Positions 1 through 58,219 of a stretch of 64,000 nucleotides of DNA are shown piece by piece (position 1 is the stretch's first letter; the number at the start of each line of letters is the position of its first letter). A model generated the notes under the pieces. It did no database searches. It saw nothing but the letters and a program-made list of their open reading frames with translations, and was not told the DNA's origin. The position numbers and the translations under genes were made by a program. The DNA is from a phage, in assembly GCA_022979955.1 (NCBI GenBank), contig GCA_022979955.1_3642.1. The stretch is one strand, 5' to 3'.

Positions 1-120
1 CTACCTACCTTACGGAAAAAGAACTGCTGAACCAGGTAAAGATTCAATCATCAAAGTGTTCCCGTGTGCTTTCTGGCTGGAGATTTTGGTATAAGATTGC
101 AGAGGATTTGGGAGAGAATT

Positions 121-315
121 ATGAGAAACAAGAGAGAGCTTTACTCTGGCGAGTGGATCAACGATCAACAAGTCGGAGAGGTAACCTGCTTCCGGTGTTT
201 TACTCGGTACAATCTTAAAACTGCACCAAAAAGTGTTCCAAAGACTGATGGTTATTACATAAAAGAACCTCATTGCCCAAAATGTAAATGCCGATTGTAC
301 TGGAGCAATCTATAA
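121..315 (+). CDS. hypothetical small protein with two CxxC pairs (zinc-ribbon-like)
   Basis: ORF 64..315 trimmed to in-frame ATG at 121 preceded by GGGAGAG; CFRC...CPKC motif. Confidence 0.45.
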   Translation: MRNKRELYSGEWINDQQVGEVTCFRCFTRYNLKTAPKSVPKTDGYYIKEPHCPKCKCRLYWSNL

Positions 316-378
316 GAGGTTGACATCTGAAAACTGCAGTGTATAGTATACGCATAAACTAAAAGAGAGCGATGTATT

Positions 379-570
379 ATGGTAATTTTTAACCGGGATG
401 GTATCATAGTTAGACAGCACCCGTTCCTTGAATACTATCAAATTGAGCAATGGTGCTACGGAGATTGCAGTCACTCCTATGGGCAAAGTTGGGGATATCG
501 CACAGTTTTTGAATCAACAGACCTTGACAAAGTAAGACAGAAAGTTTTAGAACTTATTAACAACAAGTGA
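379..570 (+). CDS. hypothetical protein
   Basis: ORF track; same strand and spacing as neighbouring early genes; weak SD. Confidence 0.4.
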   Translation: MVIFNRDGIIVRQHPFLEYYQIEQWCYGDCSHSYGQSWGYRTVFESTDLDKVRQKVLELINNK

Positions 571-579
571 GTATGATAT

Positions 580-912
580 ATGGTAACATTAGAAAGACGT
601 AAAGCTATCGCCGCCACACTGGCAGACATCTTTTGGGATTGCAACTTAAAAGATACCAGAAATTGTGGCGCATCTGTAGATGTATTATTCCCACGGCCCA
701 CCATTGTTGCAATGGGAAACCTGTTAAACGTAGTGTACGGAGCATGGGACAAAGAAGGTGGATTCTATATCTGGCAACCTGACTACGGAGCCTGGAAAGA
801 GGTAAGGGGTGCGGTTGACTTTGGGCCTACAAGTGCTAAGATGGATGGCTGGGAAATTTATGTTGGAAACGACATGAAGCTGAAAGGCGAGATTGTTTAC
901 TGGTTGCCTTAA
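580..912 (+). CDS. hypothetical protein
   Basis: ORF track 110 aa; packed head-to-tail with neighbours. Confidence 0.45.
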   Translation: MVTLERRKAIAATLADIFWDCNLKDTRNCGASVDVLFPRPTIVAMGNLLNVVYGAWDKEGGFYIWQPDYGAWKEVRGAVDFGPTSAKMDGWEIYVGNDMKLKGEIVYWLP

Positions 913-932
913 GAACGTGCAGGAGATAAAAT

Positions 933-1178
933 ATGAGCAAAGGGTGGACATTTGTAGACGGCGTTAAAAACATGCCTCTTGGAAAGTATATCGTAGCCAT
1001 GGCTGATGAGGATGGCAATGTAGATTTCGGAGCTTGCGAGGTTGTTCTTGCAGGATCTGGTAACTATGTGGACAAAACCGGGATAATTAACGGTCAGTTC
1101 TACTTTGATCACAACCCTGTTGTAGCGTATATGGCTATGCCAGAGTTCAAGTTCCCAAAGGAGGGTGCAGATGTTTAA
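933..1178 (+). CDS. hypothetical protein
   Basis: ORF track; AGGAG SD 8 nt upstream of ATG. Confidence 0.5.
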   Translation: MSKGWTFVDGVKNMPLGKYIVAMADEDGNVDFGACEVVLAGSGNYVDKTGIINGQFYFDHNPVVAYMAMPEFKFPKEGADV

Positions 1179-1368
1179 GCTTAAATCTGCATGGAACATC
1201 GCTGTGGGGGACGAGATCCGTATCCCAGGTGGAAAGACCATTATGAAGATATCTCGTATTGAGTACGAAGGTGACCGTGTATTCCACATCTTCGCAGAAG
1301 ATGGTCGAGAAATTTATATACAGGCAGGTTCTCACATCTATATCCGTAAGAAAGGGGACGACAAATGA
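1171..1368 (+). CDS. hypothetical protein
   Basis: ORF 1165..1368 (GTG) trimmed to ATG at 1171 with AAGGAGGG SD. Confidence 0.5.
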   Translation: MFKLKSAWNIAVGDEIRIPGGKTIMKISRIEYEGDRVFHIFAEDGREIYIQAGSHIYIRKKGDDK

Positions 1369-1697
1369 CAGAGATCATCGTTTCAACTGCAGGGTATGTA
1401 TTCCTGACAATCATTGCGCTGGCTATTCTGGTGGCGGTGTATGGATTTGTTATCCTGCCTATTCTTGAGACATTTAGTTTGTGTCGGTGTTGGAGAAAAG
1501 CTTACGGACCACAACCGTGGAAAGACTGGTTCCATTTGGTGCGTATAGCGTTCTCTTATGCCTATGACCACTCTAGCAGTGCATGCGTAACCGGGTACCA
1601 TGCCTACAACTGGAACTGGGAAGGGCTGGGGAGATGGACTGTTACAAAAACTATACCCTTACGGTTGTACAAAGGAAAGAACACACTGGGAGCCTGA
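1365..1697 (+). CDS. hypothetical membrane protein
   Basis: ATG overlaps upstream stop (ATGA); hydrophobic N-terminal segment. Confidence 0.5.
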   Translation: MTEIIVSTAGYVFLTIIALAILVAVYGFVILPILETFSLCRCWRKAYGPQPWKDWFHLVRIAFSYAYDHSSSACVTGYHAYNWNWEGLGRWTVTKTIPLRLYKGKNTLGA

Positions 1698-1699
1698 TA

Positions 1700-2300
1700 T
1701 TTTAAGTTATCAGGTTGCCAGAGATCAGGAGGATTTCTAAAATGGATTTCCTCCTTTTGATATTTCACCGGGCCGGATATTTTAAAATTCTTAGAAAATC
1801 AGAAAATGGATCGAAAACTAAAATGGATTTTTCAGAGTAGGCGCGACAAGCTGAATAACTCATCCTATCGTTTGCACCATATTCCAGGCCACCATTATAG
1901 ATTTCCCACACATGCTAACCTCTCTCTACTAGAACTTCCTCCACTTACCCTTGACCTTCTATGGTAACAATCTAACCGCTATCTTGAAGTTGCGGTGCAG
2001 CTTTCCAGGTACTCGATCTACTTTTCATTTCAGGGCTTGGATTTTCTGAAAATTTTTCTCGATAAATTTCTCAGTACTCGATCTGTTTTTCGTTTTCTGA
2101 ATCGGATTTTCTGGAAATCGTTCCGGCTCTCAACCTGAAATTTTGGGGACGAAATCGATTTTTCGTTTTCAGAAATGGATTTTTAAAATTTCTATATGGG
2201 AATATTTTAGTGGATACTATTTTATAGTAAATTGTTACGGAGGGTAATTAGCGTGCTAATTAAATTTATTAAATGCGAGGAGTTCTCATTTAGAATTTTG
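1700..2300. repeat. repeat-rich non-coding region (GGATTTTCTG / CAGAAAATGGAT / GTACTCGATCT / TTTCGTTTTC direct and inverted short repeats)
   Basis: no credible ORF; multiple 9-12 bp motifs recur, e.g. 2009 and 2074, 2038 and 2104, 1801/1819/2171. Confidence 0.5.
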
Positions 2301-2331
2301 AATGATAATCATTCTCGTTTGCAGAATAATG

Positions 2332-2354
2332 GGCAGGCCCGGTGATTGTCTCCC
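2332..2354 (+). repeat. 23-bp element GGCAGGCCCGGTGATTGTCTCCC, copy A (inverted partner at 11757..11779)
   Basis: exact reverse-complement match read between the two sites; degenerate third copy near 2476. Confidence 0.55.
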
Positions 2355-2710
2355 GGCCCCTGCTGCCCCGGCTTGTTATTATAGTATCACACAGGACAAA
2401 GAAAGCAAGGATTTTTTGCATAAACTTTTAAATGATAATGATAACCGTTCTCATTTTATGCAGCGCCCATCCCCGGTGGTTGTCTCCCCCGTCACCGGTG
2501 CCTGCCGTCCTTTCGATAGGTATATTGTGCCACCTGGCGGGGCCGCTGTCAACACTTTTCAAAAAATTTTTCTAACCTGATGCGCTAACCGCTGCAACCT
2601 GGCGGGGCCAGCCTGGCAGGACCTAACTGACCAGGTAGGAGAGAATGAAGGCTTGTAAACCTGGTGGGCCTATGCTATAGGAGAGGTAACAATTGAAGAG
2701 GAGGTACAAA

Positions 2711-2836
2711 AATGGAAGGTAATATGATCCCCCTGGAAAATGTAGCTATTAATGACGCTGAGGCTATCGCCCTGGTTGAAAAGGCTATGGCGGGAGCGTT
2801 GGAATATAAAGAAGAGTACGAAAAAATGATGGTTAA
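2711..2836 (+). CDS. small ORF (41 aa), hypothetical
   Basis: strong GAGGAGG SD 7 nt upstream of ATG; below ORF-track size cut-off. Confidence 0.25.
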
Positions 2837-2973
2837 CCTGGCAGGGGCGGCGGCTGGAGAATTCCGCCCAAAAAATAATTTTAACTAATGGTTGACAGCT
2901 CGGACAGTTCTTGTTATTCTTATCCTCACAAGGTGAACAACACCACACTAATTAACAGAGAGGATAAAAAATC

Positions 2974-3171
2974 ATGAACGCCTACGGAATCAAAGTACGT
3001 CGCAGCACTCGCCAGGTGGTCACCGATCAAATGGTTTGCCAGGTGGATGTAACCATCAACAACGGGCAAGGCCTTTATAAATTTCGTCGCGGTCATAGCT
3101 ATACCCTGCAACAGCTTAATCGTTGCGCCCTGACAAAAGGCCAGATCAACCACTGGTTTAATAAAAAATAA
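2974..3171 (+). CDS. hypothetical basic protein
   Basis: ORF track; GAGAGGATAAAAAATC-ATG leader. Confidence 0.5.
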   Translation: MNAYGIKVRRSTRQVVTDQMVCQVDVTINNGQGLYKFRRGHSYTLQQLNRCALTKGQINHWFNKK

Positions 3172-3173
3172 AT

Positions 3174-3203
3174 ATTGACATATAGTCTGACACAAAATAT
3201 ACT
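3174..3203 (+). promoter_or_regulatory. sigma70-like promoter TTGACA-N18-TATACT
   Basis: near-consensus hexamers upstream of gene 3236. Confidence 0.5.
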
Positions 3204-3235
3204 GAAATCACAAAAGACACTAAGAGGATAAAATC

Positions 3236-3634
3236 ATGAAAACCACAACCTTTAATTTTGATAATGCCGACTTCTCTTTTTCTGATGTCAAGAACTGCCG
3301 CCGTGATCGTGGATTTTACAAGGCTTATAATCTGGTTGGCCTGGACGATGATAATAATTTGCACGAAGTAGCGGAGATCCGGTACTATGCCGCCGCCAGC
3401 GGTAACACTAACTATTGCGTTTTTTGGATACACGACAACAAGAACAATAAGTACGGTTATACTGGCGGCAAGGCGAGCGGTCACGGTTATGATAAAGCTA
3501 ACGCAGCACTTGAGAGCGCATTAAATGCTATGGGGATCACTGCCAACGGCTGGGTCTATGAAGAAGAGTTTTTGTCGGCACTTGCTGACCATCTAGGCTA
3601 TAAAAAGCACATTGTAACATGCGCCCACGAATAA
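3236..3634 (+). CDS. hypothetical protein
   Basis: ORF track; AAGAGGATAAAATC-ATG. Confidence 0.55.
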   Translation: MKTTTFNFDNADFSFSDVKNCRRDRGFYKAYNLVGLDDDNNLHEVAEIRYYAAASGNTNYCVFWIHDNKNNKYGYTGGKASGHGYDKANAALESALNAMGITANGWVYEEEFLSALADHLGYKKHIVTCAHE

Positions 3635-3716
3635 AAATCATTGACACGCTGCAAAATTTAAGTAAACTAGGCACAAAAGGTGGGAATGTTTCCCGCCAAC
3701 ACGAAGGAAAAAGATC

Positions 3717-4121
3717 ATGAATAAGAACATACGCCGCATCATGAACGAACTGGCAAACGATGAAAAAATTATTGACATGCATTTAGTCAACATTTGCCGC
3801 CGTTGTGTAACATATAACAACCGCGCCGCAAAAGCGCGTGAGATGAACGCAAAAGGCACCTTAAAGCCATTCCAGGTGGTGGTAAAGGCCATTAAAGATG
3901 TAACTAATACGGCAAACCAGGTACAGGGGAACACCAACGAGAGTACCAATATTGATCCGGCTTACATCATGAAACGGATCCGGACCTGCAAGAACAAAGA
4001 GCAAGTGTATAATGTCATAGACTGGTTGGATTCTATGGGCGATGTGGTTTACAATAGGTTTTCTGCAGCTATCGAGATCCAGCTTGACAGGTTGGACGGT
4101 AAAGTACTGAAAACTTACTAA
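3717..4121 (+). CDS. hypothetical protein
   Basis: ORF track; promoter TTGACA at 3646 and leader hairpin upstream. Confidence 0.55.
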   Translation: MNKNIRRIMNELANDEKIIDMHLVNICRRCVTYNNRAAKAREMNAKGTLKPFQVVVKAIKDVTNTANQVQGNTNESTNIDPAYIMKRIRTCKNKEQVYNVIDWLDSMGDVVYNRFSAAIEIQLDRLDGKVLKTY

Positions 4122-4122
4122 G

Positions 4123-4168
4123 TTTATTTTTAGATGGCCTTGACTCCAGGGTCATCAATAAAGTAAAC
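4123..4168 (+). promoter_or_regulatory. conserved about 45-bp palindromic cassette (TTTATTTTTAGATGGCC-TTGACTCCAG-GGxCATCAATAAAGTAAAC), copy 1
   Basis: near-identical copies at 4744 and 8456; inverted repeat GATGGCC/GGCCATC encloses a -35-like TTGACT; A/T tract upstream. Confidence 0.45.
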
Positions 4169-4202
4169 TAATCTCAACTAAGCGAAAAAGGGGGGCTTTA
4201 AG

Positions 4203-4322
4203 ATGAGCACTACACGCCAATACACAAAGGTAACTATTATCGTTTGCGTTGTCGGTTACATCCTGGCGCAAATGTTAATGAGTAGCGCTAACAGTTTTGC
4301 AAAATTTTTCTTAAATTTTTAA
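4203..4322 (+). CDS. small hydrophobic peptide ORF (39 aa)
   Basis: AAGGGGGG SD; single predicted TM-like stretch; below track cut-off. Confidence 0.25.
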   Translation: MSTTRQYTKVTIIVCVVGYILAQMLMSSANSFAKFFLNF

Positions 4323-4401
4323 TTGACAAACTAACTTAGATCGATATACTTAAACACGTAAACGGGAAAACTTCCCAGAGCACACAAAAGGAGAAAACAC
4401 C

Positions 4402-4743
4402 ATGACTACTATGACCGCCGCAGAAAAAGCTATGCAGATCGCCGCGCTGAAAAAACAGATCGCAGACCTTGAGAATAAGATCGATAACTTTGAAATCGAC
4501 GAGGACAAGTACGACGAAAACTATGATGAATGGTTAGACGAGATCTACGGCGAAATCATGATCGGAAACATTTCTTTTCTTCCGTCGCGTATCCTCAAGG
4601 AGCTAGATCCTATCGCTTACCGCTGCGGATTTAGCGACTACATCGACAGCCTGGATATTGAGGACGATGAAGAATACCAGGAATTACAGACAGAGCTCGA
4701 AGAAGTGAAAGAAGAGCTTGCAGAACTGGAAGAAAACGAGTAA
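4402..4743 (+). CDS. hypothetical highly acidic protein
   Basis: ORF track; AAAAGGAGAAAACACC-ATG; D/E-rich with coiled-coil-like ends. Confidence 0.55.
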   Translation: MTTMTAAEKAMQIAALKKQIADLENKIDNFEIDEDKYDENYDEWLDEIYGEIMIGNISFLPSRILKELDPIAYRCGFSDYIDSLDIEDDEEYQELQTELEEVKEELAELEENE

Positions 4744-4790
4744 ATTTATTTTTAGATGGCCTTGACTTCAGGGCCATCAATAAAGTAAAC
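4744..4790 (+). promoter_or_regulatory. conserved palindromic cassette, copy 2
   Basis: matches 4123..4168 apart from 2 substitutions. Confidence 0.45.
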
Positions 4791-4832
4791 TTTAGACTGT
4801 TAACACTTAACCAATACAGAGGAGTTAAAACC

Positions 4833-5078
4833 ATGGCCGCACTAATTACCAAATATTATGCCCCTACCAACACCAAAAGCGCCCGTATCATGGTAAAAGG
4901 CTTCGGACGTAAAAAGGTTTACACCTGGGATTATGCCTTAGACACGGAAGACAACTACACCAACGCGATGACCGATTTTATTAATGATCTGAACACGCGG
5001 ATCTTAACAAATTATAAAATTACCGACATTGCTTATATAGGTGAAGGCGGGATCTGTTTTGTAGGCATTGTGAAATAG
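4833..5078 (+). CDS. hypothetical protein
   Basis: ORF track; CAGAGGAG SD. Confidence 0.5.
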   Translation: MAALITKYYAPTNTKSARIMVKGFGRKKVYTWDYALDTEDNYTNAMTDFINDLNTRILTNYKITDIAYIGEGGICFVGIVK

Positions 5079-5152
5079 TTATTTTTTCGGTGGTCCTGGC
5101 TGCAGGGCCATCTATAAAGATAATTTATTAACACAATGAAAGGAGAAAGTAC

Positions 5153-5506
5153 ATGATCAGCGGGGCAAGTTTTATTATTGGCGCTATTGCTACGGCTTTA
5201 ATTGTAAACAAGATCCAATCTAAAAACGAAAAAGAGAGCAACGCGCTCACAGAATACCCATTTTGGGTATTCAACGACAATGAAGACTACATTATCAAGT
5301 ACAAGAATGAGAAGGGCGACCAGGTAACACCGCGACCGATCCCAGCTTACAAGATGCAAGAAACACTATACCGCCTAAAGGCTGGAGGCGCAAAAATCGT
5401 AGACTTTTGGGGATATGATTGCAAGGATCAGGAGGTTATAAAACGGCGTATCCGGGCGATTCAGGCAAATATTGAAGTTAGCAAGGGGGGAATATATGAA
5501 GATTAA
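5153..5506 (+). CDS. hypothetical protein with N-terminal TM segment
   Basis: ORF track; AAAGGAGAAAG SD; preceded by variant of the palindromic cassette at about 5085..5135. Confidence 0.5.
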   Translation: MISGASFIIGAIATALIVNKIQSKNEKESNALTEYPFWVFNDNEDYIIKYKNEKGDQVTPRPIPAYKMQETLYRLKAGGAKIVDFWGYDCKDQEVIKRRIRAIQANIEVSKGGIYED

Positions 5507-5693
5507 TTTTGAGAAGATTGTAAAGCGATCTCATGATTCCGAAGAGTTGCCGGAACGCCGCCAGCGCAACAATAAATTGAATAAGCCAAAAAGATTTGGG
5601 AAGATCTGGCGGAATCATTATGATCGTAAATTGCCGGGCCTACTTTTGGAACGTGAACGACAGGCGGAACGATACCGCCACAAAGGCAAATAA
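5496..5693 (+). CDS. hypothetical basic protein
   Basis: ORF 5472..5693 trimmed to ATG with AAGGGGGG SD; K/R-rich. Confidence 0.4.
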   Translation: MKINFEKIVKRSHDSEELPERRQRNNKLNKPKRFGKIWRNHYDRKLPGLLLERERQAERYRHKGK

Positions 5694-5699
5694 CAACCA

Positions 5700-5728
5700 A
5701 CGCCCCGCCATTGTGCGGGGCTTTTTAT
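5700..5728 (+). terminator. rho-independent terminator
   Basis: CGCCCCGCC-loop-GCGGGGC hairpin followed by TTTTTATTT. Confidence 0.55.
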
Positions 5729-5851
5729 TTCTATCATACGAATAGCGCCCCTGGTTGGCCCTGTAAGCGCCAAAAAGGCCCCCACCTATGCAATCGCCCC
5801 CTTTAACCTGAAAACATCGCCCAGGGCCGTTTTATGGCGTTAAAAATATCA

Positions 5852-5879
5852 TTGACATCGTCAACAGGTTAGCTATACT
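5852..5879 (+). promoter_or_regulatory. sigma70-like promoter TTGACA-N16-TATACT
   Basis: hexamers read directly; upstream A/T tract. Confidence 0.5.
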
Positions 5880-5911
5880 AACCACATCAAAGAGAGGAAG
5901 GAGTAAACGCC

Positions 5912-6172
5912 ATGCGTAAATTAAAAAATTTTGATAAAGTTGATGTTATCCTGAATAATTTTTACTACTGCAACAACAAGGCTATTTGGTGGCGTGATAG
6001 TTCCACCGATAAAGTCAAGGCGCGCTTTCTCCAAGGGCACTGGCAAGGCCGCCCAGTGATTAAAATCATGGGGCAATTGGTAGCGTTTAAAAATTGCCGC
6101 CGTGTTGATGACGTTGAGGAGATTTTAAACATTTTGCGCCACAATAATTTAAAAAATAGTGTTGACAAGTAA
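5912..6172 (+). CDS. hypothetical protein
   Basis: ORF track; GAGGAAGGAG SD. Confidence 0.5.
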   Translation: MRKLKNFDKVDVILNNFYYCNNKAIWWRDSSTDKVKARFLQGHWQGRPVIKIMGQLVAFKNCRRVDDVEEILNILRHNNLKNSVDK

Positions 6173-11025: not shown

Positions 11026-11170
11026 CCATGAGAAAGATAATTATTACCATTGGGATCGTGGCGGCAATGTTGGCGATCTTTCCCTTTATGGTTAGGTATG
11101 TGCTGATTAATGTTGTCCTGGTAGTCAGTGATCTGGTGTTATATATTAACTCATTGTTTTAGGCGCGATA

Positions 11171-13970: not shown

Positions 13971-14597
13971 GGCGTAGAAACAGTGGAAGTGTAAACAGTC
14001 AATCATGTAAATGATAAGTATGTGAACAGTTATCCATGTAAACTATTAGACATGTAAACAATCAGGTGTGCAAAAGTGTCAAGGGTGTCACCATTGTGTC
14101 TAAAGTGTCGTATGTCATCAGTATGTCAGACAAGTTTTTCTCCTCTTTGTCAAGTGCTGCATGAAAAATTTACAATCTTGTATGGTAGCATTTTTGCGGT
14201 CCTGTTTACATTCAGAGATGTATGTATAATCCTTGTTGTGTGGGCGTTTAGACGTCTAGACGGTCAGAAGTCTGCAGGTCAATATCTAATCTATTGGCTG
14301 CTAACTATATCCCACACAAATAGTAAGAAATATAATTGTTATATGCGTAAACAGTAACCCATGTTATCAATCCCTGTATGGATCGCCAGTGGTGCGCATA
14401 ATGGGTATTATGTTAAATTGCCCGTAATGATAATGGTTCTCACAATGATATGTATTCTCATTCCCCCACACAAAATAGATTGCAAATGTTGTGCCACTAT
14501 GTGAACGGCCTCACCTATTAATTTGCCTCACTGCCTCGATATTTGAGAATTATTATAAGAATGAGAAGTATTCCCATTTCGTCCGCCTGGCAGCGCT

Positions 14598-14900
14598 CCT
14601 GTAGGTCCTGCAAGGACTCTAGCTGAAAGCTAGACCCTTCGGGCCTCCCTGTAGGTCAGGTCAAAATCGTGGTAGAATTGGGCCTATTCAGATATTTCTG
14701 GCTGGCTCTTCAGGTCTGTGTGGGAAAAGCCAACCTCTCCGGCGGGGCAGGGGGAGGTAAATTAAAAAATTTACGGGGTATATGAAGCGCTCTTCAGGTA
14801 AGGCATGTACTATGGGATGAAACCCTCTTCAGGCAATGATATTTGTGGGTGTGATATTTGCTGGAAAGCCAGATATGACGGGACTCCCGGCGGGGCAGGG
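14598..14900. repeat. cluster of short direct repeats: CCTGTAGGTC x2, CTCTTCAGG x3 (4th at 15238), CCGGCGGGGCAGGG x2
   Basis: motifs read at 14598, 14647; 14706, 14790, 14825; 14739, 14887. Confidence 0.55.
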
Positions 14901-57361: not shown

Positions 57362-57436
57362 GCCCTGTTAGCTTAGTGGATAAAGCAGCGGCCTTCTAAG
57401 CCGTTGACACTGGTTCGAGTCCAGTACGGGGTGCCA
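57362..57436 (+). tRNA. tRNA-Arg (anticodon UCU)
   Basis: hand-folded cloverleaf: acceptor GCCCTGT/ACGGGGT, anticodon loop CTTCTAA, T-loop TTCGAGT, 3' CCA encoded. Confidence 0.7.
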
Positions 57437-57440
57437 AATT

Positions 57441-57527
57441 GGGGAGTTATCCCGTAGAGGTAGCGGTGTAGACTGTAAATCTATTGTCATTGCGACTCGG
57501 GTGGTTCGACTCCACCACTCCCCACCA
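57441..57527 (+). tRNA. tRNA-Tyr (anticodon GUA), type II long variable arm
   Basis: acceptor GGGGAGT/ACTCCCC, anticodon loop CTGTAAA, T-arm GGTGG-TTCGACT-CCACC, CCA encoded. Confidence 0.7.
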
Positions 57528-57641
57528 AATTTATATTTTTAGATGCGTAAATAATACAGATAATGGCATTGATATTTATCGTCGTTTATACTAGTCACTA
57601 ACTGCTCGAAAATCAGTGTCATTATCAGTATAATTTATAAA

Positions 57642-57732
57642 GGAGGGTAGGGAGCAATGGTGCTCAAGCGGTCTTGAAAACCGTCCCATTGAGGATGACT
57701 CGATGATGGTTCGATTCCATTACTCTCCGCCA
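57642..57732 (+). tRNA. tRNA-Ser (anticodon UGA), type II
   Basis: acceptor GGAGGGT/ACTCTCC, anticodon loop CTTGAAA, long variable arm, T-loop TTCGATT, CCA encoded. Confidence 0.65.
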
Positions 57733-57830
57733 CATTGTTGACCTTGTAATTAAGCGAAAGCCGGAAGCAGAACCGGATTATCAAATGTTACAGTCGTCAT
57801 CGCCGACTAGCAACATGGTCAACATACTGA

Positions 57831-57927
57831 GCTAGGTAAGCCCTTTGGCAAGGGCGAGGATTTTTAATCCTGAAAATAGACGAGGTAGTCGTTGAATACA
57901 TAGGTGGTTCGATTCCACCGCCTAGCA
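57831..57927 (+). tRNA. atypical tRNA-like gene (anticodon loop TTTTTAA, nominal Lys-UUU) with about 30-nt extra arm
   Basis: acceptor GCTAGGT/GCCTAGC, D-arm GCCC-TTTGGCAA-GGGC, T-arm GGTGG-TTCGATT-CCACC; 4-bp anticodon stem; no encoded CCA. Confidence 0.35.
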
Positions 57928-57933
57928 CCTTTT

Positions 57934-58009
57934 GCTGATGTAGCACAATTGGCAGTGCAATTGATTTGTAATCAATAGGTTGCAGGTTCAAGTCCTGCCA
58001 TCAGCACCA
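57934..58009 (+). tRNA. tRNA-Thr (anticodon UGU)
   Basis: acceptor GCTGATG/CATCAGC, anticodon stem ATTGA/TCAAT with loop TTTGTAA, T-arm GCAGG-TTCAAGT-CCTGC, CCA encoded. Confidence 0.75.
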
Positions 58010-58010
58010 T

Positions 58011-58085
58011 GGCCCTGTAGCTGGAAGGTTCAAGCAAGCGACTCATAATCGCCAGATGGTGGTTCAATTCCACCCAGGGCCACCA
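58011..58085 (+). tRNA. tRNA with CAU anticodon (Met, or Ile if lysidine-modified)
   Basis: acceptor GGCCCTG/CAGGGCC, anticodon loop CTCATAA, T-arm GGTGG-TTCAATT-CCACC, CCA encoded. Confidence 0.65.
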
Positions 58086-58096
58086 AATTATAAATA

Positions 58097-58163
58097 CTCC
58101 GCGTAGCTCAGCTTGGTAGAGCGCCTGATTTGGGATCAGGAGGTCGAGTGTTCGAATCACTCC
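58097..58163 (+). tRNA. tRNA-Pro (anticodon UGG)
   Basis: acceptor CTCCGCG/CGTGGAG, anticodon stem CCTGA/TCAGG with loop TTTGGGA, T-loop TTCGAAT, CCA encoded. Confidence 0.7.
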
Positions 58164-58219
58164 GTGGAGACCACCTTTAGTTATACTTTAAACATATACA
58201 AACGAAAGGAACCTTTAAA

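What the first reader, a model, noticed from the sequence alone, without database searches (positions are those of the whole stretch)
1700..2300. 600-bp repeat-rich non-coding tract inside the early block
Short motifs recur in direct and inverted orientation (GGATTTTCTG at 2038 and 2104; CAGAAAATGGAT-like at 1801, 1819, 2171; GTACTCGATCT at 2009 and 2074; TTTCGTTTTC at 2090 and 2161) with no credible ORF. This could be a second iteron-type origin, a host-factor binding array or a small-RNA locus.
Basis: seen in the sequence. Interest (0 to 1): 0.5.

Follow-up and report, generated by a model that had tools for sequence, protein, structure and literature searches.

The report
Essential non-coding phage control cassette
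The repeat-rich stretch is real. It is the left part of a 1-kb gene-free cassette, conserved in rV5-like phages, with tandem repeats, an A+T-rich stretch, host iron-regulator (Fur) sites and inward-pointing promoters. Published transposon data show the phage cannot tolerate insertions there, so it is most likely an internal replication origin.

Summary
The window is an rV5-like Vequintavirus. The reported repeats exist (two coordinates are 1-2 nt off) and are far above chance. No ORF is credible.

The gene-free tract is larger than reported, 1698-2711. Its order is kept across five Vequintavirinae genera and a Phapecoctavirus:
- short GATATTT and AAAATGGAT repeats;
- a hypervariable spacer;
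- three 65-73-bp tandem units;
- an A+T-rich stretch;
- two cassettes of Fur-box palindromes with face-to-face sigma-70-like promoters.

A matrix built only from the phage palindromes ranks the three Fur-regulated ent-fep intergenic regions as its top four hits in 50 kb of E. coli K-12.

Published transposon data for phage Bas54 (96% identical here) show 0 of 11 TA sites hit over unit 3 plus the A+T stretch. Only 5 of 15 were hit over the Fur/promoter cassettes. All flanking genes tolerate insertions.

The virion ends map about 12 kb away, so this is not the packaging site. No RNA family or conserved fold was found.

Best reading (about 0.4): a transcription-activated internal replication origin modulated by host Fur. 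A pure transcription switch or a long non-coding RNA remain possible.

The parts
1727..1768 (+). Hairpin AGGAGGA(1727-1733)/TCCTCCT(1749-1755) followed by TTTTGATATTT. Probable intrinsic terminator of the upstream early operon and left border of the cassette.
   Evidence: RNA fold -15.3 kcal/mol. A G->A / C->T double change keeps the pair in phage slur16. The ATG at 1742 inside the loop opens an ORF that is 32 aa here, 84-99 aa in FV3 and YN3, and stopped at codon 8 in slur16.
1696..1832 (.). Module A: GATATTT x3 (1696, 1759, 1776) and AAAATGGAT x3 (1739, 1803, 1820).
   Evidence: Equivalent GATATTTG plus GAAATGGTTTT arrays start at the stop codon of the upstream gene in Certre-, Mydo-, Seuna- and Henunavirus. 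Positions 1751-1850 are 91-92% conserved within the genus.
1836..2001 (.). Module B: hypervariable spacer of nearly constant length.
   Evidence: 59% of columns vary among 8 Vequintavirus genomes, with no codon periodicity (35/34/29) and only 1-2-nt indels.
2002..2195 (.). Module C: three tandem 65-73-bp units (about 2002-2066, 2067-2139, 2140-2195). Each has a GTACTCGATCT-type head (degenerate in unit 3), a TTTTCGTTTTC block, a GGATTTT block and an A/T tract.
   Evidence: Only 17.5% of columns are variable, against 26% in the flanking gene. Three units (two in phiWec186) sit at the same place in every genus. First-to-last spacing is 138-145 bp, but the sequence is lineage-specific. Bas54 transposon data: 1 of 3 TA sites hit over units 1-2, 0 of 11 over unit 3 plus the next stretch.
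2196..2271 (.). A+T-rich stretch (70-80% A+T in 40-nt windows from 2170 to 2330) with palindrome TAATTAGCGTGCTAATTA (2245-2262). Candidate unwinding element.
   Evidence: Lies within the 0-of-11 TA interval of Bas54 (bas54_0101 = window 2143-2247).
2272..2319 (.). Fur-box pair, 29 bp apart: degenerate box 2272-2290 and strong box 2301-2319 (perfect palindrome GAATGATAATCATTC at 2300-2314).
   Evidence: The pattern gives 11 matches in the window against 0.43 expected, confined to two non-coding regions apart from one weak site at 11033. A phage-derived matrix finds the fepD-entS, fepB-entC and fepA-fes Fur regions of E. coli as its top 4 hits.
2298..2327 (+). Rightward promoter-like site P_R: TTGAAT-N18-CAGAAT, overlapped by the Fur box.
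   Evidence: the same hexamers and spacing occur in 6 of 9 cassettes across genera. Prediction only. An alternative leftward reading exists on the other strand: GAGACA (2352-2347)-N18-TATTCT (2328-2323).
2331..2356 (.). Conserved core GGGCAGGCCCGGTGATTGTCTCCCGG. A second copy of the motif, CCCCGGTGGTTGTCTCCCCC, is at 2471-2490.
   Evidence: Window 2256-2417 is the only part of the tract detectable by blastn in distant genera, and the core lies within it. Alignment. No convincing RNA helix.
2381..2419 (-). Leftward promoter P_L1: TTGCTT (2408-2403)-N16-TGaTACTAT (2389-2381), with an A-tract upstream (2419-2409).
   Evidence: A leftward sigma-70-like promoter sits at the equivalent position in each of the other genera except phiWec186 (L006), where the only leftward candidate lies about 40 bp further out; scores 9-10 of 12.
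2434..2455 (.). Fur box of the second cassette: GATAATGATAACCGTTCTC matches 16 of 19 positions of the E. coli consensus.
2524..2573 (-). Leftward promoter P_L2: UP-like A/T tract (2573-2553), TTGACA (2552-2547), N17, TGgCACAAT (2532-2524). It points into the cassette, where no ORF exists.
   Evidence: 10 of 12 plus TG. 98-99% conserved in the genus. The leftward RNA would carry G clusters: 7 C-runs against 2 G-runs on the + strand in 2300-2560.
2574..2711 (+). Right border: CCTGGCGGGG-type short repeats, variable with deletions in some relatives, then the ribosome-binding site of the 58-aa gene (2712-2888).

Best explanation
Positions 1698-2711 form one conserved, gene-free, cis-acting cassette that the phage needs. 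I read it as an internal origin of DNA replication of the transcription-activated kind. Inferred mechanism: host RNA polymerase starts at two leftward sigma-70 promoters (P_L2 near 2552-2524, P_L1 near 2408-2381) that face no gene. The transcripts run through G-cluster segments and Fur boxes into a 75-80% A+T stretch (2170-2330) and the three tandem units (2002-2195). There the RNA, or the act of transcription, opens the duplex and primes or loads the phage replisome. The tandem units differ in sequence between phage lineages while keeping their place and their roughly 140-bp span, so they probably bind a phage-encoded protein. Host Fur, bound to palindromes that overlap a facing rightward promoter, modulates the system according to iron status but is not required. 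Shown here: the repeats, the conservation, the absence of coding signal, the Fur-like specificity of the palindromes, and (from published data) the intolerance to insertions. Inferred: that the promoters are active, what the units bind, and the replication role itself.
For: 1. The modular order is conserved while the flanking genes differ, in Certre-, Mydo-, Seuna-, Henuna- and Phapecoctavirus.
2. Within the genus, modules C and D are more conserved (8-17% variable columns) than the flanking gene (26%), with no codon periodicity.
3. HIDEN-SEQ on Bas54/MaxBurger, 95.7% identical here: bas54_0101 (window 2143-2247) had 0 of 11 TA sites hit in two libraries. bas54_0102 (2302-2575) had 5 of 15, then 2 of 15, with mean count 12.7 against about 150-560 for neighbours. 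bas54_0100 (1992-2138) had 1 of 3, then 0 of 3. Genes 0092-0099 and 0104-0109 tolerate insertions. The transposon has no terminator, and the authors argue against widespread polar effects.
4. A sigma-70-like leftward promoter, strong in most lineages (9-10 of 12; 7 of 12 plus an extended -10 for window P_L1), points into the ORF-free part in every lineage.
5. G clusters in that RNA are followed by an A+T-rich stretch. [quoted passage not shown]
6. The packaging role is taken by another locus. The 459-bp terminal repeat of Gotham maps to window 14129-14587.
7. The palindromes have Fur specificity, and no phage-encoded Fur homologue was found.
Against: No replication data exist for any of these phages. 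There is no DnaA box with one mismatch or fewer, no IHF consensus, and no GATC enrichment. The units are 65-73 bp, not classical iterons. The A+T-rich stretch is less marked in Seunavirus. No initiator-like gene is adjacent, and the neighbours are variable and of unknown function. GC skew shows no shift here, and the rV5 paper found skew changes only at switches of transcription direction. All promoters are consensus predictions. The 'essential' calls could reflect poor marker expression at this locus, loss of a diffusible RNA, or deregulated transcription. Per-site transposon data for 1698-1991 are not available in the stored supplement.
Confidence: 0.4

Rival explanations
1. A transcription-control hub only. 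Face-to-face promoters with Fur operators form a switch that sets early gene expression by iron status. The tandem units and A/T tracts are upstream binding or bending sites for a phage or nucleoid protein. Insertions are harmful because they deregulate transcription, not replication.
For: Fur boxes overlap a conserved TTGAAT-N18-CAGAAT site and sit 29 bp apart. Convergent promoters lie about 55-75 bp apart in every genus. An exact match to what I recall as the H-NS high-affinity motif, TCGATAAATT, is at 2059-2068 (the consensus is from memory). A+T tracts adjoin the -35 elements like UP elements.
Against: The genes downstream (bas54_0104-0109) are individually dispensable, and insertions in them are tolerated, so loss of rightward expression should not be lethal. 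The leftward promoters face no gene. The 0-of-11 interval (2143-2247) lies outside the promoter and operator cassettes.
Confidence: 0.25
2. A long non-coding or antisense RNA locus. The product is the leftward (or rightward) RNA itself, acting in trans on host or phage targets.
For: Strong leftward promoters have no ORF downstream. The conserved core GGAGACAAUCACCGG lies near the 5' end of that RNA. An inverted repeat ATAGCGGG/CCCGCTAT occurs in genera other than Vequintavirus.
Against: There is no Rfam match in the window or in 7 relatives. No terminator-like site was found on the minus strand of the tract. The one helix is not kept in the window and shows no strand preference. Folding of the adjacent conserved block in relatives is no better than shuffles, with z of +1.0 to +1.3. 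The insertion-intolerant span, about 590 bp, is long for a small RNA.
Confidence: 0.12
3. Real small proteins. The ORFs annotated in some records (34 aa at 2143-2247, 92 aa at 2302-2580) are genuine essential genes.
For: They are annotated in BASEL and other records, and Bas54 scores them 'Essential' and 'Strong fitness defect'. The 92-aa frame is open in 8 of 8 genomes.
Against: Variable sites fall 7/6/8 over codon positions, and the differences visible in the eight translations are almost all amino-acid changes. The ATG of the 92-aa ORF is part of the Fur palindrome, and no Shine-Dalgarno sequence precedes it. The 34-aa ORF starts with TTG and has a premature stop in 3 of 8 genomes. The ORFs are absent in other genera although the DNA motifs persist.
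Confidence: 0.05
4. A packaging or terminus-related site (pac).
For: It is cis-essential, repeat-rich and non-coding. Fur-like boxes also occur in the terminal repeat.
Against: A Vequintavirus with mapped ends (Gotham: 459-bp terminal repeats and one fixed packaging start, PMC7471380) places them at window 14129-14587, about 12 kb away. No listed GenBank record starts at the tract.
Confidence: 0.03
5. Chance or neutral low-complexity repeats with no function.
For: The region is A+T-rich (36% G+C in 1700-2300), which favours short repeats.
Against: Shuffles, conservation across genera, conservation above that of coding flanks, and insertion intolerance all argue against it.
Confidence: 0.01

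Closest known systems
Phage T4 origins oriF(uvsY)/oriG(34) and oriE
   Same: A promoter used by host RNA polymerase points into an A+T-rich unwinding element, and no protein product is needed. oriE adds a cluster of direct repeats and depends on an early-type promoter (PMC3016281).
   Different: The T4 minimal origins are about 100 bp and use MotA-dependent middle promoters. Here the promoters have sigma-70 -35 boxes, the cassette is about 600-1000 bp, the repeats are 65-73 bp (T4 oriE: 12 nt), and Fur operators are present. By my recollection, no single T4 origin is required for growth, whereas this tract does not tolerate insertions.
Iteron origins of lambda, P1 oriR and plasmids F, pSC101, R6K (features recalled from general knowledge)
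   Same: The layout is similar: direct repeats, an A+T-rich stretch, then a palindromic operator overlapping a promoter.
   Different: Classical iterons are 17-22 bp at about 22-bp spacing, lie next to their initiator gene, and usually come with DnaA or IHF sites. None of this holds here. The operator palindromes match host Fur, not the repeats.
Fur-repressed promoters of E. coli (fepA-fes, fepB-entC, fepD-entS)
   Same: The 19-bp palindromes have the same specificity (cross-scan), occur in multiples and overlap promoter elements.
   Different: They sit in virulent phage genomes, in a gene-free cassette and in the terminal repeat. They are spaced 29 bp apart rather than forming overlapping 6-bp arrays (PMC2189734). 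The preferred half-site is TGAGAAT rather than TGATAAT.
Face-to-face promoters of coliphage 186 and P2 (recalled from general knowledge)
   Same: Convergent promoters lie a few tens of bp apart and could interfere with each other.
   Different: Those switch between lysis and lysogeny and transcribe genes in both directions. Here the leftward side has no gene, and the phage is virulent.

Membership tests
Fur box / Fur operator | A 19-bp palindrome matching GATAATGATAATCATTATC (7-1-7 TGATAATnATTATCA) | tested here: met
   Box 2301-2319 matches 15 of 19 (hand count on the sequence) and 2434-2452 matches 16 of 19. A matrix from 22 phage boxes puts its top 4 hits in 50 kb of E. coli K-12 in the three Fur-regulated ent-fep intergenic regions, which are 1.45% of the DNA.
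Fur box / Fur operator | The box overlaps the -35/-10 of the regulated promoter | tested here: inconclusive
   It overlaps the predicted TTGAAT-N18-CAGAAT site, but promoter activity and direction are unverified. A leftward reading, GAGACA-N18-TATTCT, fits equally well.
Fur box / Fur operator | Fe-Fur binds the site and expression responds to iron or to a fur deletion | not testable with these tools
   Needs EMSA, footprinting, ChIP or reporter assays. fur was not among the 6 host genes required by V5-like phage LL12 (PMC7229145), so Fur is not essential to the phage.
Iteron-type replication origin | Three or more tandem direct repeats of 17-22 bp at helical phasing | tested here: not met
   There are three repeats, but of 65-73 bp with only sub-blocks conserved.
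Iteron-type replication origin | An adjacent A+T-rich unwinding region | tested here: inconclusive
   70-80% A+T over 2170-2330 in the window. This is weaker in Seunavirus SSE121.
Iteron-type replication origin | DnaA boxes or IHF sites | tested here: not met
   No TTATCCACA with one mismatch or fewer, and no WATCARNNNNTTR.
Iteron-type replication origin | A cognate initiator gene next to the repeats | tested here: not met
   The neighbouring genes differ between genera (a 110-aa protein, a roughly 275-aa protein of unknown function, NADAR, HNH). None has a Rep-like domain.
Iteron-type replication origin | Replication initiates there, or the segment replicates autonomously | not testable with these tools
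   Needs marker-frequency, 2D-gel or plasmid assays.
R-loop / transcription-activated origin (T4 oriF/G type) | A promoter directed into an A+T-rich element with no gene downstream | tested here: met
   In silico only. P_L2 and P_L1 point leftward into 2170-2330, and there is no conserved ORF on the minus strand.
R-loop / transcription-activated origin (T4 oriF/G type) | A persistent RNA-DNA hybrid that primes the leading strand | not testable with these tools
   Only G clusters in the predicted RNA can be shown.
Small regulatory RNA gene | A discrete promoter-to-terminator unit, a conserved fold, or an Rfam family match | tested here: not met
Packaging site / genome terminus | Coincides with the virion DNA ends | tested here: not met
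   The terminal repeat of Gotham maps to window 14129-14587.
Protein-coding gene | Third-position bias of substitutions and a conserved open frame | tested here: not met

The most novel reading that the evidence does not exclude
Virulent rV5-like and phi92/phAPEC8-like phages couple an essential, transcription-primed replication origin to the host iron sensor. Fe-Fur bound to phased boxes in the origin cassette, and to further boxes in the terminal repeat right at the virion DNA end, would gate the leftward primer transcripts against a facing promoter. Origin firing, or the choice between early programmes, would then follow host iron status.
Probability: 0.15. Interest if true: 0.8.

Novelty: new variant of a known kind. 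Interest (0 to 1): 0.62.

Why it matters
rV5-like phages are widely isolated and are used in therapy and biocontrol cocktails, yet their origin of replication and early regulation are unknown. The rV5 paper looked for an origin by skew analysis and found none. This cassette gives a concrete, testable candidate. It also explains two 'essential hypothetical genes' of the Bas54 essentiality map as non-coding DNA. Finally, it shows that these virulent phages carry conserved binding sites for the host iron regulator, which hints that phage development senses iron, a condition that varies strongly in the gut and in infection sites. For genome engineering, it marks a segment that should not be used as an insertion site.

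Tried and rejected
- Rfam at permissive thresholds on window 1-6000 and on 7 related loci found nothing usable.
- RNAalifold on both strands of the conserved core gave one weak helix, which is not kept in the window and shows no strand preference.
- Folding the 90-nt block conserved in other genera was no better than shuffles.
- CsrA-type GGA sponge: the GGA motifs seen by eye in the window are not present in Seunavirus, whose equivalent repeats read TGGTTTT.
- The tandem units as sigma-70 promoters: the only candidate, TTGAGA-N16-GAAAAT on the minus strand, is not conserved.
- DnaA boxes, IHF sites and Dam-site clustering are absent.
- A phage-encoded Fur homologue: none in these subfamilies.
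- An initiator in the neighbouring genes: Pfam and PHROGs give only unknown function, NADAR or HNH.
- Per-TA-site transposon counts for 1698-1991 are not in the stored supplement.
- The literature searches for a described Fur link or an origin in these phages found nothing; the transcriptome search returned only unrelated papers and was uninformative.

Full report
**Identity and context.** The window is an rV5-like Vequintavirus, 93-95% identical over 1500-2750 to phages bov10K2, JeffSchatz, rV5_ev and FFH2. The finding lies in a block of small + strand genes. Each gene has a strong TTGACA-N16/17-TATAcT-type promoter.

**The observation.**
- The pairs are fragments of longer units. Positions 2002-2058 and 2067-2123 are 74% identical, and a third partial copy lies at 2154-2183.
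- AAAATGGAT occurs at 1739, 1803 and 1820, and GATATTT at 1696, 1759 and 1776.
- Exact direct 10-mer pairs number 15 in 1700-2300 against 0.83 in dinucleotide shuffles (3 of 1000 shuffles reach this). None of the exact motifs occurs elsewhere in the 64 kb.

**Coding potential.** The gene-free tract is larger than reported. It runs from the stop codon at 1697 to the ATG at 2712.
- Among eight Vequintavirus genomes, the flanking gene 1365-1697 shows the expected third-position excess of substitutions (23/14/49). No part of the tract does: 12/11/11 in the tandem units, 7/6/8 in 2302-2560, 35/34/29 in the spacer.
- The small ORFs that some records annotate here lose their start codon, gain stops or change length through a T-run indel.

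**Conservation.** Within the genus, 2001-2600 is 88-99% identical per 50 nt. Only 8-17% of its columns vary, against 26% in the neighbouring gene. The segment 1836-2001 is hypervariable (59% of columns) but keeps its length.

Sensitive blastn finds only window 2256-2417 in distant phages. Reading those loci shows that the whole architecture is nevertheless syntenic. This holds in Certrevirus (PcCB7V, PBES02), Mydovirus (BIS47), Seunavirus (SSE121, FENT2, GE_vB_MG), Henunavirus (Hena1) and the Stephanstirmvirinae phage phiWec186. The order on the early-gene strand is:
- GATATTTG repeats starting at the stop codon of whatever gene lies upstream, followed by GAAATGGTTTT-type short repeats;
- a variable spacer;
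- two or three tandem 63-78-bp units;
- one to four 19-bp palindromes;
- a conserved core, GGGCAGGnCCGGTGATTGTCTCC.

The flanking genes differ between genera: a 110-aa protein, a roughly 275-aa protein of unknown function, a NADAR protein and an HNH endonuclease. The tandem units have lineage-specific sequences but keep a first-to-last spacing of 138-145 bp. In phiWec186 there are two copies, 139 bp apart.

**The palindromes are Fur boxes.**
- The consensus of 22 phage boxes is AATGAGAATCATTCTCATT. In most loci they are spaced 29 bp apart.
- In the window the pattern gives 11 matches against 0.43 expected. Apart from one weak site at 11033, these lie only at 2301, 2437, 14426, 14444 and 14560; a further degenerate box at 2272-2290 (4 mismatches) was picked up by the looser scan.
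- The box at 2434-2452 matches 16 of 19 positions of the E. coli consensus GATAATGATAATCATTATC (consensus as in PMC4506495 and others).
- I built a symmetric matrix from the phage boxes alone and scanned 50 kb of E. coli K-12 around the ent-fep cluster. The four best hits scored 16.0, 15.3, 14.8 and 12.4 bits; the next scored 7.8. All four fall in the fepD-entS, fepB-entC (twice) and fepA-fes intergenic regions, which are 1.45% of the stretch. These are footprinted Fur targets (PMC2189734).
- No Vequintavirinae or Stephanstirmvirinae record encodes a Fur homologue, so host Fur is the expected binder.
- A Keio screen of the V5-like phage LL12 found six required host genes, and fur was not among them (PMC7229145). 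Fur is therefore a modulator, not a requirement.

**Promoters (predictions only).**
- In six of nine cassettes a rightward TTGAAT-N18-CAGAAT site is overlapped by the promoter-proximal Fur box.
- About 55-75 bp to its right, most genera have a stronger leftward sigma-70 promoter; in phiWec186 the only leftward candidate lies about 40 bp further out.
- In the window these are TTGCTT-N16-TGaTACTAT (2408-2381) and TTGACA-N17-TGgCACAAT (2552-2524). The second is preceded by an UP-like A/T tract at 2573-2553.
- The cassette is duplicated in Vequintavirus (2272-2420 and 2434-2573).
- The leftward promoters face no ORF. Their transcripts would carry G clusters: 7 C-runs against 2 G-runs on the + strand. 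They would then cross the Fur boxes, a 70-80% A+T stretch (2170-2330) and the tandem units.

**Experimental evidence from the literature.** HIDEN-SEQ transposon mapping of Bas54 (bioRxiv 10.1101/2025.11.20.689424) used phage MaxBurger, MZ501093.1. It is 95.7% identical to the window here. The spurious ORFs annotated inside the tract serve as probes.

| Bas54 feature | Window coordinates | TA sites hit, reference library | TA sites hit, first library | Call |
|---|---|---|---|---|
| bas54_0100 | 1992-2138 | 1 of 3 | 0 of 3 | NA |
| bas54_0101 | 2143-2247 | 0 of 11 | 0 of 11 | Essential (both libraries) |
| bas54_0102 | 2302-2575 | 5 of 15 | 2 of 15 | Strong fitness defect, then Essential |
| bas54_0099 | 1365-1697 | 18 of 21 | 13 of 21 | Non-essential, then Intermediate |
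| bas54_0103 | 2712-2888 | 12 of 14 | 7 of 14 | Intermediate |
| bas54_0104-0109 | downstream genes | tolerant | tolerant | Non-essential (0107 Intermediate in the first library) |

- The mean read count for bas54_0102 was 12.7, against about 150-560 in neighbouring genes.
- My TA-site counts reproduce the paper's totals.
[quoted passage not shown]
- At least 1992-2575 is therefore needed, either in cis or as a non-protein product.
- The paper counts bas54_0101 among its unannotated essential 'genes'. Its main text does not mention this locus or use the term 'non-coding'.

**Excluding the packaging site.** Vequintavirus Gotham has 459-bp direct terminal repeats and a single fixed packaging start (PMC7471380). 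Its repeat maps to window 14129-14587. That lies inside the other large non-coding region, which the rV5 paper marks as 'non-coding' at 104013-106618. By position I identify that region with the roughly 2-kb intergenic stretch (bas54_0134/0135) in which Bas54 shows no insertions; this correspondence was not checked by alignment. The tract studied here is about 12 kb from that end.

**Interpretation.** The cassette is essential, gene-free and about 600 bp or longer. It combines host-type promoters pointing into an A+T-rich stretch, lineage-specific tandem repeats and an operator/promoter module.

The closest parallels are transcription-activated phage origins. T4 oriF and oriG consist of a promoter plus an A+T-rich unwinding element, and T4 oriE has iterons plus an early promoter (PMC3016281). 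The layout also recalls iteron origins. I therefore favour an internal replication origin modulated by Fur, with confidence about 0.4.

Weaknesses of this reading:
- No replication data exist for these phages.
- There are no DnaA or IHF sites.
- The repeat length is not classical.
- No initiator gene is adjacent.
- GC skew gives no signal here.
- The A+T-rich stretch is less marked in other genera.

Rivals are a pure transcription switch (0.25), a long non-coding RNA (0.12), real micro-proteins (0.05), a packaging site (0.03) and chance (0.01).

**Verdict.**
- The origin-like reading is plausible.
- The host-factor array is real, but it is a Fur array lying mostly just beyond the reported right edge.
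- The small-RNA reading is unsupported.

The cassette and its Fur boxes do not appear in the rV5, CB7, BASEL or HIDEN-SEQ papers that I searched.

Noticed in passing
window 14129-14587: By homology to Gotham (MT682716.1; 459-bp direct terminal repeats), this is the virion terminal repeat. The left DNA end corresponds to window 14587, directly beside a Fur-like box (14560-14578). Two more boxes (14426, 14444) lie inside the repeat. The 'other' non-coding region is therefore at least partly the genome terminus and packaging region.
   Followed up: partly
window 13990-14070: Five TGTAAAC-type repeats at about 16-17-bp spacing lie just inside the unique sequence next to the terminal repeat. Two GATATTTG copies, the same motif as in module A of relatives, lie at about 14850-14870.
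   Followed up: no
L005 2640-2735; L004 2680-2770; also L006-L009: A roughly 90-nt block, GAACTACCGGCGATCCACCTTCCGACCTGG...GTTAGCCCCGCCTTTnCGCCGTGGGGTGGCG, is strongly conserved across Seuna-, Mydo-, Henuna-, Certre- and Phapecoctavirus, to the right of the Fur/promoter cassette. It is not recognisable in the window. It has no Rfam hit and no stable fold. A strong minus-strand promoter (TTGCAA-N17-TATAGT) reads into it.
   Followed up: partly
L004 2826-3011 (-); L005 about 2795-2980 (-): A conserved small minus-strand ORF of about 61 aa lies inside the otherwise + strand early block of Mydo- and Seunavirus. It is absent from Vequintavirus.
   Followed up: no
window 2712-2888: The 58-aa gene (PHROG 21957) shows no third-position bias of substitutions in my 8-genome alignment (15/13/14), and one relative lacks its start. 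Bas54 scores it 'Intermediate'. The alignment is gappy here, so this may be an artefact.
   Followed up: no
window 5153-5506: This 117-aa predicted membrane-anchored protein, which by gene order appears to correspond to bas54_0110 (not checked by alignment), is 'Essential' in Bas54 (9 of 31 TA sites hit) and has no annotation. It is the nearest essential protein gene downstream of the cassette.
   Followed up: no
window 57831-57929: ARAGORN calls a 99-nt tRNA with a four-base anticodon (atcc) inside the tRNA cluster at 57362-58173. It could be a frameshift-suppressor-like tRNA, an intron-containing tRNA or a false call.
   Followed up: no
plasmid record CP057073.1 (137,565 bp): This record, filed in PLSDB as an E. 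coli plasmid, is 95% identical to the tract across the full 591-nt query and has the size of a Vequintavirus genome.
   Followed up: no
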